Source: a virus
Direction: 5' to 3' (one strand)
DNA: 64,000 bases
IMG/VR virus record: IMGVR_UViG_3300015371_000001
Span: 32,001-96,000 of that record
How positions within the stretch are numbered: the first letter of the stretch is position 1; each line of letters begins with the position of its first letter. The notes beneath the pieces were generated by a model. The model did no database searches, was not told where the DNA came from, and saw only the letters and a program-made list of their open reading frames with translations. Positions 11,342 through 27,354 of the stretch are shown here, piece after piece. A program made the translations under genes and the position numbers.

Positions 11342-12463
11342 GTGGCTGATGAACTTGCTGTCGTCCCTAGCGACGATGCCGATTGGGTCGAGCTAGCGCG
11401 CTCGTCGTCCGGTCGTCTGTTCAGGAAGCACATCCTGACCAAGGGCGATCTGATTCATCCCAAGACTGGATCGATCATCCCCATCGATGATCAGTACCTC
11501 GACACGATGGTGGACAACTTCGAGAAGGGTGTCTGCCCTATCGTCCAGGTCCCTCTGGCCGGACCACGCAATGAGCACACCGAGGACCCTGAGCGGAACC
11601 TTGGTGAGGTCGTCGGCCTGGAGAAGGAGGGGGACAAGTTCTTCGCCGTCATCGACGTGCGGGACTCTGACAAGGCGGACAAGGTCGGTAAGACGATCCT
11701 CGGTGCGTCGGCGATGTTCTCTCAGAACTACCTCGACACCAAGACGGGCCAGCATGTCGGTCCCACGCTCTTGCATGTCTGCGCGACCAATAGACCGTAC
11801 GTCCGTGACCTAGAGGACTACGAGGAGCTAGTCGCAGCCTCATCCGATAACAACAGCGATGTGGTCGTGCTGTCCACTGCGGAAGGAACGGACGAGATGC
11901 CGGAAATGACTCGCGACGAGATGATCGCCGCACTGCGCGACGATCATGGCATCGACGTGGTGGCAATGCACGAGGAGCTTGAAGCCTCGCGGCCAGCAGT
12001 CGCCCTCACTCAGCAGCTTGCCAACGCGCTGGTCGACGGAGACATCGTCCAGCTTTCGGCGGGCCAGGAGATGACGATTGACGACGTTCGAGGCGGCGTG
12101 CTCGCGCTCGCCGAGGAGAACAGCCGTCTTGGCCAGTCGGTGGTCAACGCCGCTGACCAGATCACCGAGTTGACCAACGAGTTGGACGAGGTCACGCAGA
12201 AGCAGGCCGACACGCTCATCGACTCGCTGATCGAGCAGGGCCGGATTGCACCTGCGAAGAAGGACGACTACCTCAAGCTGTGCATGACCGACTTCGACAT
12301 GTTCGAGGCGATGGTGCCGGACGAGCCCATCGTCAAGCTCTCCAAGGAGTCCGGCACGTCGGAGACCGACGATGTCCACGACACCAACGAGAAGGCCATC
12401 ACCAGCGAGATCGACCGCTACGTGAAGGCGGACTTCGCGAAGCCGTACGTGCGGACGCAGTAA
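11342..12463 (+). CDS. Prohead protease/scaffold (Mu gpI-like)
   Basis: NEH..., SAMFSQNY, GPTLLHVCATNRPYV protease-like N-terminus; acidic helical scaffold ending in IEQGRIAPA; synteny. Confidence 0.8.
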   Translation: MADELAVVPSDDADWVELARSSSGRLFRKHILTKGDLIHPKTGSIIPIDDQYLDTMVDNFEKGVCPIVQVPLAGPRNEHTEDPERNLGEVVGLEKEGDKFFAVIDVRDSDKADKVGKTILGASAMFSQNYLDTKTGQHVGPTLLHVCATNRPYVRDLEDYEELVAASSDNNSDVVVLSTAEGTDEMPEMTRDEMIAALRDDHGIDVVAMHEELEASRPAVALTQQLANALVDGDIVQLSAGQEMTIDDVRGGVLALAEENSRLGQSVVNAADQITELTNELDEVTQKQADTLIDSLIEQGRIAPAKKDDYLKLCMTDFDMFEAMVPDEPIVKLSKESGTSETDDVHDTNEKAITSEIDRYVKADFAKPYVRTQ

Positions 12464-13454: not shown

Positions 13455-14462
13455 GTGCCTGAGATCAGTCTTTTGAACCCGACCGTGCTGCGGGGCGTCG
13501 TTGAGAAGTTCACGGCCCCAGAGTCGCTGGTGATGCTCAACCGCGTCGACAAGACTCCGTGGCCGTACCCGAGCGCCACTTGGGACGTGATCCGTGGTTC
13601 GCGCATGATGGCGAAGCCGAACGTCCCCAACTCCGAGGCCCACATCGTGCCTCGTCTGGGTCGGAGCCAGGAGTCGGCGAGCTTCGTCTACCTTCGTGAG
13701 AAGAAGGTGTTCGAGCCCACCACGCTCTACTGGATTCGTACGCCAGGGCAGCTTGCGGCGCGCAACGCCGAAGCTGCGGTCATGCGAGAGATCGGTGACC
13801 TCAACCAGCGCTTCGACAACTTCGCCGAGTTCTGCATCTGGCGGATGTTCACCGGCAACCTGGTGCTCGACTATCCCGACGTGCAGGCCAACGTCGACTA
13901 CAAGCTCCCGTCGAGCCACAAGCCGAACCCAGGCACCTCGTGGGCATCAGGCACCCCCGAGTCGCTGGTCGGCGACATCCGGGCTTGGAAGCGGCTCATC
14001 AGCCGTGACGGTCGTGTTCCGGCGCGTGAGGCGTACGCCACCGAAAAGACGATCTCCTACATCTTCGACGCCTACGCGGACACCGGCTCCAACGCGCCGT
14101 TCCTGCTGAGCGACCGGATGAAGGACCAGTACTACTCGACCGGCACGCTCCCCAACTTCATGGGGCTCGACTGGCATACCACCGAGCACATCTTCGAGGA
14201 CGACAGCGGCAACGAGACGCTGTTCCTGGCGGACAACGCGCTGCTGATCGGCAACTTCACCGAGAACCGTCCGTTCGAGATGTTCGTCGGCCCGACCGCT
14301 GACGACGAGGCTCCGGACTATTTCACCGGCAAGTTCTCCAAGACGTGGAAGGACAAGGACCCGTCGGCCAGGCAGTACCTCCTGGAGTGGCACTTCCTTC
14401 CGGTTATGACCCGTCCTGAGCAGTTCGTCTACGTCGCGGACGTGACCGACACCACGCCATAA
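13455..14462 (+). CDS. Major capsid protein (lambda gpE-like)
   Basis: 335 aa with strong SD (AAGGAG); follows scaffold and decoration genes; KTWKDKDPSARQYLLEWHFLPV C-terminus; strong hairpin follows. Confidence 0.85.
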   Translation: MPEISLLNPTVLRGVVEKFTAPESLVMLNRVDKTPWPYPSATWDVIRGSRMMAKPNVPNSEAHIVPRLGRSQESASFVYLREKKVFEPTTLYWIRTPGQLAARNAEAAVMREIGDLNQRFDNFAEFCIWRMFTGNLVLDYPDVQANVDYKLPSSHKPNPGTSWASGTPESLVGDIRAWKRLISRDGRVPAREAYATEKTISYIFDAYADTGSNAPFLLSDRMKDQYYSTGTLPNFMGLDWHTTEHIFEDDSGNETLFLADNALLIGNFTENRPFEMFVGPTADDEAPDYFTGKFSKTWKDKDPSARQYLLEWHFLPVMTRPEQFVYVADVTDTTP

Positions 14463-14653: not shown

Positions 14654-15394
14654 ATGGCTACACGCTTGAACCAACTGCTCGCTATCGACAAGACGCAGCA
14701 GGCAGAGACGAAGTCTGTGGTCACCAAGTCGCACCACGCGCTTCAGACAAGCTCCAAGACGGTGGGTATCCACCGGAGCTACCAGCCGCTCGATGAGGCG
14801 GACACCGACCGACTGCCCGATGAGGGCACGCTGGTCCAGGTCCGTGCGGGTGAGGAGATCCAGCGGGTCCGCAAGGCATGGGGCGACCTCATGGACGTGA
14901 CCGCGAAGAAGGACTGGACCAACCAGTCGGCCAACGCGGATGTTGTCCTGTCGGACGGCACGGTCCTGGTCGAGGGTGCGCCCACGACGTTCCTGCTCTG
15001 GCTGGAGAAGCGGCTGGAGGACATCTACACCTACGTGTCCAAGATCCCGGAGTTGAACCCCGGCATCGAGTGGGAGTACGACCCGAACACGGACACGTAC
15101 CGCTCGAAGCCCACCGAGACGGCGCGCAACAAGAAGGAGCCGAGGGTCGTCACCTTGGCTCCGTCGACCGACAAGCACCCGGCGCAGACCCAACTCCTCA
15201 TGGAGGACAAGCGGGTCGGCACGTTCACCACGACGCACTTCAGCGGTGGGATGCCCCGCAAGGACATTCAGGCGCTCAAGGAGCGGGTGCGCGAGGTCGC
15301 CAAGGCGTCCAAGCAGGCACGGGAGCAGGCCAACCTGGTCGATGTGGACGACATCGAGGTTGCCGACCGTGTCCTGGACTACATCTTCGGGTAG
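14654..15394 (+). CDS. Conserved hypothetical protein (MATRLNQLLAI...; from memory resembles the actinobacterial/phage DUF7873-type family)
   Basis: 246 aa, SD GGAGGCAGC; motifs KKDWTNQSANADV, FLLWLEKRL, TDKHPAQ, HFSGGMP, AREQAN. Confidence 0.8.
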   Translation: MATRLNQLLAIDKTQQAETKSVVTKSHHALQTSSKTVGIHRSYQPLDEADTDRLPDEGTLVQVRAGEEIQRVRKAWGDLMDVTAKKDWTNQSANADVVLSDGTVLVEGAPTTFLLWLEKRLEDIYTYVSKIPELNPGIEWEYDPNTDTYRSKPTETARNKKEPRVVTLAPSTDKHPAQTQLLMEDKRVGTFTTTHFSGGMPRKDIQALKERVREVAKASKQAREQANLVDVDDIEVADRVLDYIFG

Positions 15395-15397
15395 GGT

Positions 15398-15870
15398 TGA
15401 CGTAAGCCAAGTTCATCGTCATTGGTCAGTGAGGGTGCAGCCTCTTAAGCGGCCCCACTCAAGTTCATGGATAGCGGGACCCTAGTGCAGGTTCGAGCCC
15501 TGCCCCCGGTACAACGAGCCGGGGTAGCCCAATCGGTAGAGGCAGTCCCCGCCAGTCAAGCTCGGCTTACAAGTTCATAGACCGTGGGAGGCCGGATCGA
15601 TCTGGCACCGACCCACTAAAAGCAAGAGGAGCGGGTTCAATTCCCGTCCCCGGAGCAGGGTCCCCGTCCCGTGAGCAAGAACGGTGGGGGACGGTGGCTC
15701 TGCTCCGGGGTGGCTCAAGTGGCTGAGCGCTTGCTTACGTCATAGTTCTTTCGGTGCCCAACTGTGTCGGTTCTCCAGGATCGCGGATACGACTACAGAC
15801 CTGACTTTTGAATCAGACCTCTGATCGTTGGGGGTGGCCCACAAGGCAAGGTGGGTCACCCCCGCTTTTT
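15398..15870 (+). ncRNA. Structured RNA with two circularly permuted tRNA-like modules
   Basis: T-arms GCAGG-TTCGAGC-CCTGC (15487-15503) and GCGGG-TTCAATT-CCCGT (15631-15647), each followed by a closed acceptor-like stem and a D-arm-like segment; no credible ORF; ends in a terminator. Confidence 0.75.
15830..15870 (+). terminator. Intrinsic terminator
   Basis: GGGGGTGGCCCAC / GTGGGTCACCCCC stem followed by GCTTTTT. Confidence 0.85.
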
Positions 15871-15911: not shown

Positions 15912-16436
15912 ATGACCGACTTCGTGGACCTCGATGAGGTAGAACCACTTCCACCGCTCTTTCAGGAGCAGATGGAGAAGGCGGAGAATGTTCACTTCAT
16001 GCTCGCCCCGCAGAATCCCAGCGAGGCAGACCTGGAGGCGTACGCCGACGGCCTGGACGCGGCAGCGGACGTGATCGACTCCAAGGGTTGGTGCCAGAAC
16101 ACCTTCATCGGGCAGGACGGTACGGTCTGTGCCGAGCAGGCGATGTGGGTGGGCTACGGCCTGAAGGGTATGTGCGGGCAGGAAGCGAAGCCCACCGATG
16201 GCCTACCGTTGGCTCAATTCAACAAGGCGCTCGCCATGCTCGCGCTGATCGTCAAGGCGCATGGTGCTCGTACCGGTGCGTCGGTGGCTGGCTGGAACGA
16301 TGAGGACGCCACCACGAAGGAGCAGGTGGTCGACACCCTGCGCTTCGTGGCCAAGGAGTTCCGCATGGGCAAGGCGTACTTCGAAATTAATCTGCCGTGG
16401 GGGGTTGACGGTCGGCAACCAGATGCCGTAGAGTAG
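15912..16436 (+). CDS. Hypothetical protein, 'AAD-I--GWxQ...C...WND' paralog family (DUF6197-like from memory)
   Basis: AAADVIDSKGWCQ..C..GWNDEDATTKEQVVDTLR; SD AGGAGG. Confidence 0.75.
   Translation: MTDFVDLDEVEPLPPLFQEQMEKAENVHFMLAPQNPSEADLEAYADGLDAAADVIDSKGWCQNTFIGQDGTVCAEQAMWVGYGLKGMCGQEAKPTDGLPLAQFNKALAMLALIVKAHGARTGASVAGWNDEDATTKEQVVDTLRFVAKEFRMGKAYFEINLPWGVDGRQPDAVE
16404..16434 (+). promoter_or_regulatory. Housekeeping-type promoter TTGACG-N18-TAGAGT with overlapping GTTG-N8-CAAC box
   Basis: Close to the actinobacterial HrdB/SigA consensus; points into a long ORF-free structured region. Confidence 0.65.
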
Positions 16437-16440
16437 TAGT

Positions 16441-16980
16441 CAAGTGAAGGGGCTCCGAAACCGGTATGCCGGGGGAGTCAAGCCACACCTCGCGGGAGCT
16501 ACGGTGTAACGCGAGGCGAGGACTGCGGCGATAATCCGCGCTCGTGACGGATGGCGGTCAGGTCCCTACGGGGACTGCTCCAACTGGAGACCCCTTCGCG
16601 AACACCCCCTGTGGGCGACTGTTGACCGATGCCTAAGGGCGATCCGGCAGTTCACCGGAAACGCCACGAGTACGGCTGATGAACACGGCGGCTACGCGGC
16701 AGGGGGAGCCAGGGAATCTCGTGAACGGGTAGAGCCGCCGAGTAGGGTTCGAGTCCCGTCCCCAGCGTGTCAGGCGCTCGTCAGAACGGCGGTGAAACCC
16801 CGTGCGGAACACGGAGCGCTGTGGAACCGGGAGACCTCGTCAAGATTGCGATGGCGACGAGACAGCCCGAGGTGGGCCTGATCAGCCGCCCTGGTTCCGG
16901 GCACCGGCAACCATCTCCTTTCGGGCAGAACCCCGAGGTGAGTAGGGAGTAGCTACCCGAAAGCCTCGGGGTTCTTGCTG
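16441..16980 (+). ncRNA. Candidate large structured ncRNA (~540 nt)
   Basis: Domain-closing helices 16444-16452/16591-16599, 16605-16611/16700-16706 and 16707-16714/16889-16896; UACG tetraloop hairpin; T-loop GGGTTCGAGTCCC; 12-bp terminal hairpin. Confidence 0.6.
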
Positions 16981-26919: not shown

Positions 26920-27354
26920 ATGAGCAAGGGCGCGCACAAGCTGGGCAAGGGAGAGGTCGTGGAGAACGGTTCGTGGGGCTCTGGCAGACCTGAGATCCGG
27001 GCGTTGCAGGACCAGGTGGCCGGATGGGCGGCGGACAAGCCGTTCAAGCAGAAGGGGAATCCGGCGATGGCGGGGTGCAAGCTGGCCGAGGAGGTCGGGG
27101 AAGCGCTCGGGTGCCTGGTTCGGATGGAGCAGGGGGTTCAGGCTCCGCCCGACTACTGGCTGGGGCGGCTGGCGCAGGAGCTAGGCGATGTCCAGATCAT
27201 CCTGAGCCGACTGGCTGACGTGGTGGGGCTGGATCTGAGCGTGTGCGCCTGGAATCGGTGGTCCGAGGTCTCACAGCGCGACGTGATGGCTCCGCGTACG
27301 CCGGAGGAGCGGCAGGCGGCGGCGCTGGCCGGGTGGACGGTGGCGGATGAGTGA
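26920..27354 (+). CDS. MazG-like nucleotide pyrophosphohydrolase
   Basis: KLAEEVGE...QELGDV motif; GGAGG SD. Confidence 0.85.
   Translation: MSKGAHKLGKGEVVENGSWGSGRPEIRALQDQVAGWAADKPFKQKGNPAMAGCKLAEEVGEALGCLVRMEQGVQAPPDYWLGRLAQELGDVQIILSRLADVVGLDLSVCAWNRWSEVSQRDVMAPRTPEERQAAALAGWTVADE

What the first reader, a model, noticed from the sequence alone, without database searches (positions are those of the whole stretch)
15408..15578. Repeated CAAGTTCAT motif in the linkers of the permuted-tRNA RNA
Seen: exact CAAGTTCAT at 15408-16, 15460-68 and 15570-78, with variants CAAGCTC (15557-63) and TAGTTC (15743-48). They fall between the predicted helices. Three exact 9-mers within about 170 nt is unlikely by chance. 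Inference: these are iterated single-stranded binding sites for an oligomeric protein, probably the upstream gene product, or processing sites.
Basis: partly seen in the sequence, partly recalled or inferred. Interest (0 to 1): 0.75.

Follow-up and report, generated by a model that had tools for sequence, protein, structure and literature searches.

The report
Hexamer boxes in phage tRNA-mimic RNA
The three identical nine-letter words are real; they are this phage's unusually uniform version of a six-base repeat that lines the unpaired stretches of an undescribed RNA with two tRNA look-alikes, always encoded behind one unknown-function gene (DUF7873), and they are most likely protein docking sites, though no binding has been shown.

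Summary
Observation confirmed. CAAGTTCAT stands at 15408, 15460 and 15570. These are 3 of only 5 forward copies in the 141-kb phage genome, and no shuffle of the RNA gives any word longer than 7 three times.

The words lie in a ~350-nt non-coding RNA (15398-15742, terminator 15829-15864) that follows a DUF7873 gene and holds two circularly permuted, anticodon-less tRNA-like modules.

Homologous loci from viral contigs, metagenomes and genome assemblies carry the same RNA. Their unpaired stretches hold a hexamer-phased box, N-A-R-N-Y-U (Y-U-N-A-R every 6 nt), with invariant U and A. The 9-mer is 1.5 units of it.

- Copy 2, the CAAGCTC variant and copy 3 occupy conserved box positions on either side of the stem that bears module 1.
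- The boxes do not covary with one another, whereas the module helices do.
- The RNA and the gene are tightly linked: 15 of 15 RNA-first hits carry DUF7873.
- Phased boxes also sit by the gene's ribosome-binding site.

Best reading: a single-stranded docking track for a protein, probably DUF7873, with feedback on its own translation. No binding, oligomeric state or processing has been shown.

The RNA is not in Rfam, is not a YrlA member, and appears in no paper I could search. This scan has met the same system many times on other DNA.

The parts
14654..15394 (+). DUF7873 gene (246 aa), the constant upstream partner of the RNA
   Evidence: Pfam PF25283, E 4.8e-78. AlphaFold model pLDDT 89.4 with no convincing PDB or viral fold match. 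A box-like CAAAUCAUGG overlaps its start codon (weak).
15398..15407 (+). 5' strand of the 10-bp closing stem (UGACGUAAGC); pairs with 15733-15742
   Evidence: Perfect complementarity read from the sequence and present in the MFE folds. Specific to this window; not seen in the homologs.
15408..15425 (+). Box run 1: CAAGUU CAUCGU CAUUGG (copy 1 = 15408-16), with CA every 6 nt
   Evidence: An extra 5' run with no clear counterpart in the homolog alignment.
15429..15458 (+). Hairpin between run 1 and run 2 (GUGAGGG / CCCCAC, A15432 bulged)
   Evidence: Read from the sequence. The SNP 15443 T>C in a freshwater run falls in its loop.
15454..15473 (+). Box run 2: CCCACU CAAGUU CAUGGA UA (copy 2 = 15460-68); the homolog of the family's 5' hexamer run
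   Evidence: MAFFT places it in register with family columns 74-95, where U and A are invariant every 6 nt. It ends 5 nt before S1, as in the homologs.
15474..15480 (+). S1 5' strand (GCGGGAC), the anticodon-stem analogue of module 1; pairs with 15545-15552
   Evidence: Read from the sequence. The homologs have a 6-8-bp helix of varying sequence at the same place.
15487..15543 (+). Permuted tRNA-like module 1: T-arm 15487-15503, acceptor hairpin 15504-09/15519-24 (loop UACAACGAG, no CCA), D-arm to 15543
   Evidence: Module scan. Strong covariation of all three helices in 25 RNAs. Sub-threshold YrlA hit, 22.9 bits against a gathering score of 69.
15545..15552 (+). S1 3' strand (GUCCCCGC)
   Evidence: family analogue.
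15553..15583 (+). Unpaired linker holding the boxes CAAGCU CGGCUU (15557-68) and CAAGUU CAUAGA (copy 3 = 15570-78)
   Evidence: In register with family linker boxes L1/L2 (columns 241-253) and L4 (columns 264-273). The window lacks the 7-nt spacer between them.
15584..15616 (+). Local hairpin (GUGGG/CCCAC, GCCGG/CUGGC) with loop AUCGAU; it replaces the family's long-range helices Ha/Hb
   Evidence: The SNP 15602 C>T keeps a G-U pair. In the family, AUCGA lies in an internal loop opposite UUAAACGCCG.
15622..15734 (+). Module 2 with its stem S2 (GCAAG 15622-26 / CUUGC 15730-34): T-arm 15631-47, long acceptor hairpin 15648-58/15700-10 (no CCA), D-arm 15713-28
   Evidence: S2 overlaps the closing stem by 2 nt.
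15733..15742 (+). 3' strand of the closing stem (GCUUACGUCA)
15743..15748 (+). UAGUUC, a possible degenerate 3' box just after the closing stem
   Evidence: The family has a box after module 2 (columns 441-450), but the window aligns poorly there.
15829..15864 (+). Intrinsic terminator ending the DUF7873-RNA transcription unit
   Evidence: 14-bp stem followed by a U run.

Best explanation
CAAGUUCAU is one and a half units of a hexamer-phased, single-stranded sequence box. The family consensus is N-A-R-N-Y-U, that is Y-U-N-A-R every 6 nt. The box belongs to an undescribed ~350-nt RNA that is co-transcribed with a DUF7873 gene and carries two circularly permuted, anticodon-less tRNA-like modules.

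The boxes run along the strands that enter and leave the stem (S1) bearing module 1, and, in the family, after module 2. I propose that they form a docking track read in 6-nt steps by a protein, with DUF7873 the leading candidate. Similar boxes at the DUF7873 ribosome-binding site would let the same protein throttle its own translation. The tRNA-like heads would be held at fixed points on this track.

Shown: the motif, its phasing, its conservation and positions, the lack of box-box covariation, the gene-RNA linkage, and the boxes by the RBS.

Inferred: that a protein binds, that it is DUF7873, that binding is multimeric, and that feedback occurs.

In this phage the boxes have become unusually uniform (U-C-A core, three identical 9-mers). 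The reason is unknown.
For: Family-wide box. In 25 aligned RNAs, U and A are invariant or nearly so every 6 nt. This holds in the 5' run (columns 79/81, 85/87, 91/93, 97/99), the linker (241/243, 247/249, 268/270) and the 3' box (448/450).

Phasing. Across 49 RNAs (the window left out), Y-U-N-A-R spacings peak at 6, 12 and 18 nt (z = 33, 24, 21 against shuffles).

Register. The window's copies fall in register with these columns.

Unpaired behaviour. The boxes lie outside the consensus structure. The central N does not covary between any two boxes. Two specific candidate pairings do no better than shuffles: 62.0 vs 59.9% and 72.7 vs 70.3% of cells paired. In the same alignment the T, acceptor and D helices and the long-range helices Ha and Hb covary strongly.

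Linkage. Nearly every one of about 59 DUF7873 loci has at least one permuted module downstream. An RNA-first pattern search gave 15 contigs, all with DUF7873.

Host range. The hosts span several phyla: Actinomycetota phages, and Abditibacterium, Pyrinomonadaceae and Saccharibacteria genome assemblies. A partner encoded in cis therefore fits better than a lineage-specific host factor (inference).

Boxes at the gene's RBS. There are 12 phased box pairs in 40 leaders, against 1.05 +/- 1.07 in shuffles (maximum 6 of 1000).
Against: - There are no binding, stoichiometry, expression or processing data; no RNA run holds the locus.
- DUF7873 is mildly acidic to neutral (pI 5.4-6.6 in most members).
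- Its model matches no known RNA-binding fold. The early Cas7 hits have TM about 0.12 and did not survive the exhaustive search.
- The Y-U-N-A-R pattern is self-complementary in form, so transient RNA-RNA contacts cannot be excluded.
- The window's own leader has no strict box, only CAAAUCAUGG at the start codon.
- Box variants within one RNA are only weakly more alike than chance (0.28 vs 0.25, p = 0.04-0.09), so there is little sign of lineage-specific co-evolution with a reader.
- The sequences are related, so shuffle-based z-scores overstate independence.
Confidence: 0.45

Rival explanations
1. The boxes make RNA-RNA contacts. These could be tertiary or pseudoknot pairings within the RNA, or contacts between copies of the RNA, as in the homo-oligomeric ornate RNAs (ROOL, GOLLD, OLE). 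They would use the quasi-palindromic Y-U-N-A-R form.
For: Any two boxes can form up to 5 bp if their central bases match. In several core-clade RNAs the loop of the first hairpin (GCUCAG) is complementary to linker box 4 (CUGAGY), and L009 has the matching pair GCUUAG / CUAAGC. Phage RNAs near tRNA arrays that self-assemble are on record (PMC12286853, listed).
Against: No covariation beyond conservation was found for any box pair, nor for the two explicit models. A 5-nt box with an odd central base cannot pair with its own copy in a second molecule. In the window the boxes all carry U-C-A, and C cannot pair with C.
Confidence: 0.18
2. The boxes are cleavage or processing signals for a host or phage ribonuclease that releases the tRNA-like modules from the mRNA 3' region.
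For: The RNA is co-transcribed with the gene, since there is no terminator between them, so it needs a 5' end. Many homologs encode NCCA after the acceptor 3' strand (module 1 in 24 of 50, module 2 in 34 of 50), which suggests tRNA-type processing, as shown for M. smegmatis YrlA (PMC4201824).
Against: RNase P and CCA processing act at the acceptor, not at the boxes. Four phased boxes in a row, and boxes at the RBS, are not what a single cleavage site needs. The window's modules have lost CCA yet keep the boxes. No end-mapping data exist.
Confidence: 0.1
3. The 9-mer is an antisense seed. It would pair with AUGAACUUG in phage or host mRNAs, for example 7 nt downstream of the GTG start of the prohead protease ORF (11349-57).
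For: An exact complement lies at 11349-57, within the first five codons of ORF 11342-12463; copy 1 extends the match to 10 nt.
Against: A 9-mer complement is expected about 0.5 times per strand in 141 kb; 2 were found. The site is out of frame with the ORF's start. The family boxes are degenerate at two of six positions, which does not suit a seed.
Confidence: 0.04
4. The 6-nt period reflects codons: Y-U-N A-R-N would read as Leu/Phe followed by Lys/Arg/Asn/Ser. This would be a tmRNA-like tag or a mini-ORF.
For: The two free positions (3 and 6) coincide with wobble positions. The phages carry tmRNAs nearby. The modules are permuted, as in two-piece tmRNA.
Against: The runs are only about 4 hexamers long. 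Linker boxes are 19-20 nt apart, which is out of frame. There is no conserved stop or resume context, and no G3-U70 in the acceptors examined. ARAGORN and the Rfam tmRNA models do not match. The window and many homologs lack CCA.
Confidence: 0.03
5. The words are chance, or a neutral remnant of an internal duplication.
For: The two modules are presumably ancient duplicates.
Against: 0 of 200 shuffles reach a 9-mer three times. The flanks of the copies are unlike. The positions coincide with conserved boxes in distant homologs that share only 28-46% protein identity.
Confidence: 0.03

Closest known systems
Ro60/Rsr with YrlA-type bacterial and phage Y RNAs (Rfam RF02553; Chen et al. 2014, PMC4201824)
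   Same: A non-coding RNA encoded beside its presumed protein partner. The tRNA-like module has the same permuted order: T-arm, acceptor stem closed by a loop or cut to a CCA end, then D-arm. There is no anticodon loop. Two such RNAs or modules lie in tandem. It occurs in actinobacterial phages.
   Different: - The partner gene is DUF7873, unrelated to TROVE. TROVE is absent from this genome and from 4 of 5 near-complete relatives.
- There is no gathering-level Rfam hit.
- The Ro-binding motif GNCGAAN0-1G is absent here and inconsistent in the family.
- Both modules sit in one RNA.
- YrlA has no hexamer-phased boxes.
TRAP and its (G/U)AG repeats in the Bacillus trp leader; HutP and UAG repeats (from my own knowledge, not tested here)
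   Same: Short single-stranded triplet-core repeats at a fixed 5-7-nt period, read by one subunit each of a ring-shaped oligomer. N-A-R N-Y-U contains an NAG/NAA core every 6 nt.
   Different: There is no sequence or fold similarity between DUF7873 and TRAP or HutP. The boxes also require Y-U. They flank tRNA-like modules in a trans-acting RNA, not an attenuator. The oligomeric state is unknown.
CsrA/RsmE with the multi-site sponge RNAs CsrB/RsmZ and CsrA autorepression
   Same: One RNA with many copies of a short motif, plus the same motif at the ribosome-binding site of the protein's own gene.
   Different: CsrA sites are GGA in hairpin loops without phasing. There is no tRNA mimicry. CsrA is absent from Actinomycetota. 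The proteins are not related.
Two-piece (circularly permuted) tmRNA with SmpB (Rfam RF04321, RF01849)
   Same: Permuted tRNA-like domain with an encoded CCA in many homologs. It sits in phage islands of translation-related RNAs (tmRNA in L022 and L039).
   Different: No tmRNA model or ARAGORN hit on this RNA. There are no Ala identity pairs, no tag frame and two heads. The window's modules lack CCA.

Membership tests
YrlA / bacterial Y RNA (RF02553) | Match to the Rfam covariance model at or above the gathering score (69 bits) | tested here: not met
   Window 15460-15572 scores 22.9 bits, E 0.054. L039 gives no YrlA hit at E <= 1. There are no YrlA hits at gathering level in 20 loci.
YrlA / bacterial Y RNA (RF02553) | Encoded next to a Ro60/Rsr (TROVE) gene | tested here: not met
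   PF05731 is absent from the 96%-complete genome and from 4 of 5 near-complete related phage genomes. The neighbour is always DUF7873.
YrlA / bacterial Y RNA (RF02553) | Ro-binding motif GNCGAAN0-1G in the 5' strand of the terminal stem (PMC4201824) | tested here: not met
   The regex is absent from the window RNA. It is present in 13 of 50 family RNAs, at inconsistent places.
YrlA / bacterial Y RNA (RF02553) | tRNA-like domain in the order T-arm, closed or processed acceptor stem, D-arm | tested here: met
   Two such modules are present, and all their helices covary.
DUF7873-associated double tRNA-mimic RNA (undescribed; defined here and in earlier notes of this scan) | Lies directly downstream of a DUF7873 gene on the same strand | tested here: met
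   The gene ends at 15394 and the RNA starts at 15398.
DUF7873-associated double tRNA-mimic RNA (undescribed; defined here and in earlier notes of this scan) | Two permuted tRNA-like modules 130-190 nt apart | tested here: met
   T-arms at 15487 and 15631, 144 nt apart.
DUF7873-associated double tRNA-mimic RNA (undescribed; defined here and in earlier notes of this scan) | Hexamer-phased N-A-R-N-Y-U boxes flanking S1 and in the linker | tested here: met
   In register with the family columns, but with a local U-C-A(A/U) flavour and one G for the invariant A at 15564.
DUF7873-associated double tRNA-mimic RNA (undescribed; defined here and in earlier notes of this scan) | Long-range helices Ha/Hb enclosing the conserved internal loop AUCGA / UUAAACGCCG | tested here: not met
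   The window has AUCGAU in the loop of a local hairpin (15584-15616), has no UUAAACG, and closes 5' to 3' instead. It is a divergent member.
tmRNA (standard or permuted) | ARAGORN or Rfam tmRNA model match, with a tag reading frame | tested here: not met
   Searches give no match on this RNA.
TRAP-type repeat-binding ring proteins | Protein homologous to TRAP/MtrB, or sharing its fold | tested here: inconclusive
   Pfam gives only DUF7873. No TRAP-like chain appears among the listed fold matches, but absence from the list does not exclude it.

The most novel reading that the evidence does not exclude
DUF7873 and this RNA form a new class of ribonucleoprotein. A protein assembles in 6-nt steps on Y-U-N-A-R tracks, displays two tRNA-shaped heads at fixed positions, and represses its own mRNA through the same boxes. 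This would be a phage- and bacterium-borne device that engages the host's tRNA-handling machinery (processing, modification, repair or defence nucleases) independently of Ro60.
Probability: 0.3. Interest if true: 0.8.

Novelty: new variant of a known kind. Interest (0 to 1): 0.6.

Why it matters
If the boxes are the reading code of DUF7873, they give a direct experimental handle on a widespread but unstudied gene-RNA pair. The pair is found in phage tRNA islands and in several bacterial phyla. The handle consists of defined oligonucleotides for binding assays, point mutants at the invariant U and A, and a leader reporter for feedback.

It would add a second, Ro60-independent family of tRNA-mimic ribonucleoproteins, and a new example of phased single-strand recognition.

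For annotation, it shows that about 500 nt left blank, or covered by a small and probably spurious ORF (GodonK gp151), in cultured actinophages encodes a structured RNA.

Tried and rejected
- **Cas7-like 6-nt binder.** Foldseek listed Cascade Cas7 chains at E about 0.03 but TM about 0.12. The exhaustive VIA search gave only generic helical bundles at Z <= 9.1, and the viral library gave nothing. Dropped.
- **Box-box helices.** No covariation.
- **Lineage-specific box flavour as a sign of co-evolution.** Weak.
- **YrlA membership.** Fails three of four features.
- **tmRNA or peptide reading.** Rejected.
- **Antisense target at 11349.** Within chance.
- **Close relatives that could show whether the 9-mers drift.** None found. 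The best protein identity is 46-51%. Metagenome runs hold an almost identical phage with only two SNPs in the RNA, both outside the boxes.
- **Expression.** No RNA holder listed.
- **Pattern scan.** My first scan was mis-specified by one N and found nothing; the corrected one is.
- **Literature.** 'DUF7873' gives 0 papers. Searches for permuted tRNA or tRNA-like RNAs in phages gave nothing on this RNA.
- **Defence and annotation libraries.** PADLOC and NCBIfam have no family for DUF7873.

Full report
**Setting.** The window is part of a 141,276-bp virus record from IMG/VR, estimated 96% complete. Around the finding lie a head module: a prohead protease, a decoration protein, endonuclease VII and a major capsid protein (13455-14462). 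Next comes a 246-aa gene (14654-15394) that matches only Pfam DUF7873 (E 4.8e-78). About 520 nt without a credible ORF follow, and then a DUF6197 gene. An intrinsic terminator at 15829-15864 ends the unit, and there is none between the gene and the RNA.

**The observation.**
- CAAGTTCAT stands exactly at 15408, 15460 and 15570. CAAGCTC is at 15557 and TAGTTC at 15743.
- The whole genome has 5 forward copies, 3 of them here.
- Shuffles of the 366-nt RNA never give a word longer than 7 nt three times.
- Only four places in the 64-kb window hold any 9-mer three times within 366 nt.
- The flanks of the three copies are unlike, so the 9-mer itself is what is kept.
- The core UCA(A/U) occurs 9 times (1.6 expected), with CA or UCA exactly 6 nt apart inside each copy: CAAGUU|CAU.

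**The RNA in the window.**
- Two circularly permuted tRNA-like modules are present. Each runs T-arm, acceptor stem closed by a loop, then D-arm, with no anticodon arm. They lie at 15487-15543 and 15631-15728.
- Each sits on a stem made from the sequences before its T-arm and after its D-arm: S1 is 15474-80 with 15545-52, and S2 is 15622-26 with 15730-34.
- A 10-bp stem (15398-15407 with 15733-42) closes the whole RNA.
- Hairpins lie at 15429-58 and 15584-15616.
- Copy 2 lies 5 nt before S1. CAAGCTC and copy 3 lie in the 31-nt stretch after S1. Copy 1 follows the closing stem directly.
- ARAGORN sees no tRNA here. Rfam gives only a sub-threshold YrlA hit on module 1 (22.9 bits against a gathering score of 69).

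**Relatives.**
- Protein searches gave 20 plus 65 viral loci, 80 metagenome loci and 7 genome loci with DUF7873 (28-51% identity).
- Nearly all have one or two permuted modules just downstream. About 50 distinct RNAs have two modules 130-190 nt apart.
- One is the cultured Gordonia phage GodonK, where the gene (gp152, 'hypothetical protein') sits inside the tRNA array. The RNA region there is unannotated apart from a small reverse ORF.
- Many homologs encode NCCA after the acceptor 3' strand: 24 of 50 for module 1 and 34 of 50 for module 2. The window has neither.
- A search that started from an RNA-only pattern returned 15 viral contigs, all with DUF7873.
- Rfam at gathering level finds nothing but ordinary tRNAs and tmRNAs in 20 such loci.

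**The motif in the family.**
- None of the homolog RNAs examined contains CAAGTTCAT. All carry short words such as CAAGCU CAAUCU CAAGCU, CAGUCU UAGGCU UAGACU UAGACU, or CAAGCU GAAGCU GAGUCU.
- In a 25-RNA alignment, U and A are invariant or nearly so every six columns. This holds in a run of about four units before S1, in two adjacent units plus one more in the linker after S1, and in one or two units after module 2. The consensus is N-A-R-N-Y-U, equivalently Y-U-N-A-R plus one free base.
- Over 49 RNAs (the window left out), spacings between Y-U-N-A-R sites peak sharply at 6, 12 and 18 nt (z = 33, 24, 21).
- The aligner puts the window's copy 2 in register with units 2-3 of the 5' run. It puts CAAGCU CGGCUU on linker units 1-2 and copy 3 on the last linker unit. 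The window lacks the 7-nt spacer between them.
- Copy 1 heads an extra run (CAAGUU CAUCGU CAUUGG) with no clear counterpart.
- Three identical long words are unusual. Among 50 RNAs only the window and L171 reach a 9-mer three times. L171 is in a Pyrinomonadaceae assembly and has AAGUUGAAA four times: two in the 5' run and two in the linker, the same layout.

**Paired or not.**
- RNAalifold on the alignment recovers the six module helices and two long-range helices (Ha, Hb) between the linker and the 3' region. These have many compensatory changes, and all boxes are left unpaired.
- Y-U-N-A-R is self-complementary in form, so I tested box-box pairing directly. For all pairs of ten box positions, complementarity within an RNA is no higher than between boxes taken from different RNAs.
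- Two explicit models were also tested: the local hairpin CAAG/CUUG, and a loop-to-linker pairing GCUCAG/CUGAGY. They do no better than column shuffles.
- The boxes therefore behave as conserved sequence rather than conserved helices.
- S1 and S2, by contrast, are helices of varying sequence at fixed places. The last 5' box ends a median of 3 nt before S1, and the first linker box starts a median of 6 nt after it.

**Link to the gene.**
- Following a lead from earlier notes of this scan, I looked at the DUF7873 leaders.
- Many have one to three phased boxes abutting the Shine-Dalgarno sequence, for example CUCAAaCUCAAaCUCAGaaagaga in L026 and UUGAAaCUCAGacaaggaga in GodonK.
- Phased pairs number 12 in 40 leaders, against 1.05 +/- 1.07 in shuffles. 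Most sets of coding windows from the same genes have 0-2.
- The window's leader has no strict box. It has only CAAAUCAUGG over the start codon, which resembles copy 2 (CAAGUUCAUGG). This is weak.
- The conserved Lys-Leu-Asn codons at residues 4-6 of most homologs also spell a box (AAGCUGAA). That may simply reflect the protein sequence.

**The protein.**
- The AlphaFold model is confident (pLDDT 89.4, pTM 0.74): four long helices plus a beta-sheet.
- Foldseek against the PDB gave only weak hits. Among them were Cascade Cas7 chains, which caught my eye because Cas7 binds RNA in 6-nt steps, but TM was about 0.12.
- The exhaustive search gave generic helical bundles at Z <= 9.1. The viral library, the protein atlas, PADLOC and NCBIfam gave nothing informative.
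- The protein is mildly acidic.
- Invariant residues include a DKHPAQTQ segment.
- Nothing shows that it binds RNA or forms oligomers.

**Comparison with the known.**
- The closest described system is Ro60/Rsr with YrlA Y RNAs. The M. smegmatis member is cut by RNase P and gains CCA (PMC4201824).
- The module design is the same, but membership fails. There is no gathering-level match, and no TROVE gene in this genome or in 4 of 5 near-complete relatives. The Ro-binding motif is not consistently present.
- In mode of action, the nearest analogies are TRAP or HutP reading phased triplets, and CsrA with multi-site sponge RNAs and autorepression. These rest on my own knowledge and are analogies only.
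- No paper in the library mentions DUF7873 or this RNA.
- Within this scan the same system has been noted many times on other DNA, with the same box consensus. That is agreement between similar analyses, not independent proof.

**How this window differs from the family.**
- It lacks helices Ha and Hb and the conserved internal loop AUCGA / UUAAACGCCG. AUCGAU sits instead in the loop of a local hairpin, and the RNA closes by a 5'-3' stem.
- Both acceptors have lost CCA, and module 2 has a long acceptor hairpin.
- The boxes are uniform, with a U-C-A core.
- Metagenome contigs from rhizosphere and freshwater runs hold an almost identical phage. Its two SNPs in the RNA fall in a hairpin loop and on a G-C pair that becomes G-U.

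**Verdict.** The interpretation as iterated single-stranded docking sites is the best-supported reading, but it rests wholly on comparative evidence. The unit is a hexamer, not the 9-mer. The identity of the reader protein, and whether it is an oligomer, remain inferences.

Noticed in passing
window 16405-16980: A second ORF-free block follows the DUF6197 gene. It has its own promoter-like site (TTGACG-18-TAGAGT, 16405-16434) and D-loop- and T-loop-like pieces (GGTAGAGC, GGGTTCGAGTCCC at about 16728-16757). No Rfam family matches at E <= 0.1. It also holds GUCAAG words like those of the first RNA.
   Followed up: partly
window 11349-11357: An exact complement of the 9-mer (ATGAACTTG) lies 7 nt after the GTG start of the prohead protease ORF (11342-12463), out of frame. 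Copy 1 extends the match to 10 nt. This is within chance expectation for a 141-kb genome.
   Followed up: partly
L087 (Gordonia phage GodonK MK620899.1, record 81308-81808): The homologous RNA of a cultured phage is unannotated. The small reverse ORF gp151 (81412-81540) lies inside it and is probably spurious. gp152 (DUF7873) sits in the middle of the tRNA array.
   Followed up: partly
L039:5016-5334 and L022:1-415: Related phages carry a permuted tmRNA (RF04321, 59.8 bits) or a standard tmRNA within about 2-3 kb of the DUF7873-RNA unit. The unit therefore belongs to islands of translation-related RNAs.
   Followed up: no
L171:2306-2459: A Pyrinomonadaceae genome assembly has AAGTTGAAA four times in its homologous RNA: two in the 5' run 18 nt apart and two in the linker 19 nt apart. 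It is the only other member with boxes as uniform as the window's.
   Followed up: partly
window 27116-27211: ARAGORN calls a 96-nt tRNA-Ser with anticodon ACT. This is an unusual anticodon and length, and it is the only tRNA called in the window.
   Followed up: no
window 1545-1624: TGGAGAAGCC occurs three times (1545, 1575, 1614). This is one of only four places in the window with a 9-mer repeated three times; it is presumably a repeated peptide motif in a coding region.
   Followed up: no
run X3, contig laid on window 15484-15545: The same rhizosphere study holds a second, different family member. Module 1 differs at 8 of 62 positions, and its flanks carry other boxes (AAACUGAAGUUCAGCCUGAAG before, AUCAAUCUCAGACUC after).
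   Followed up: no
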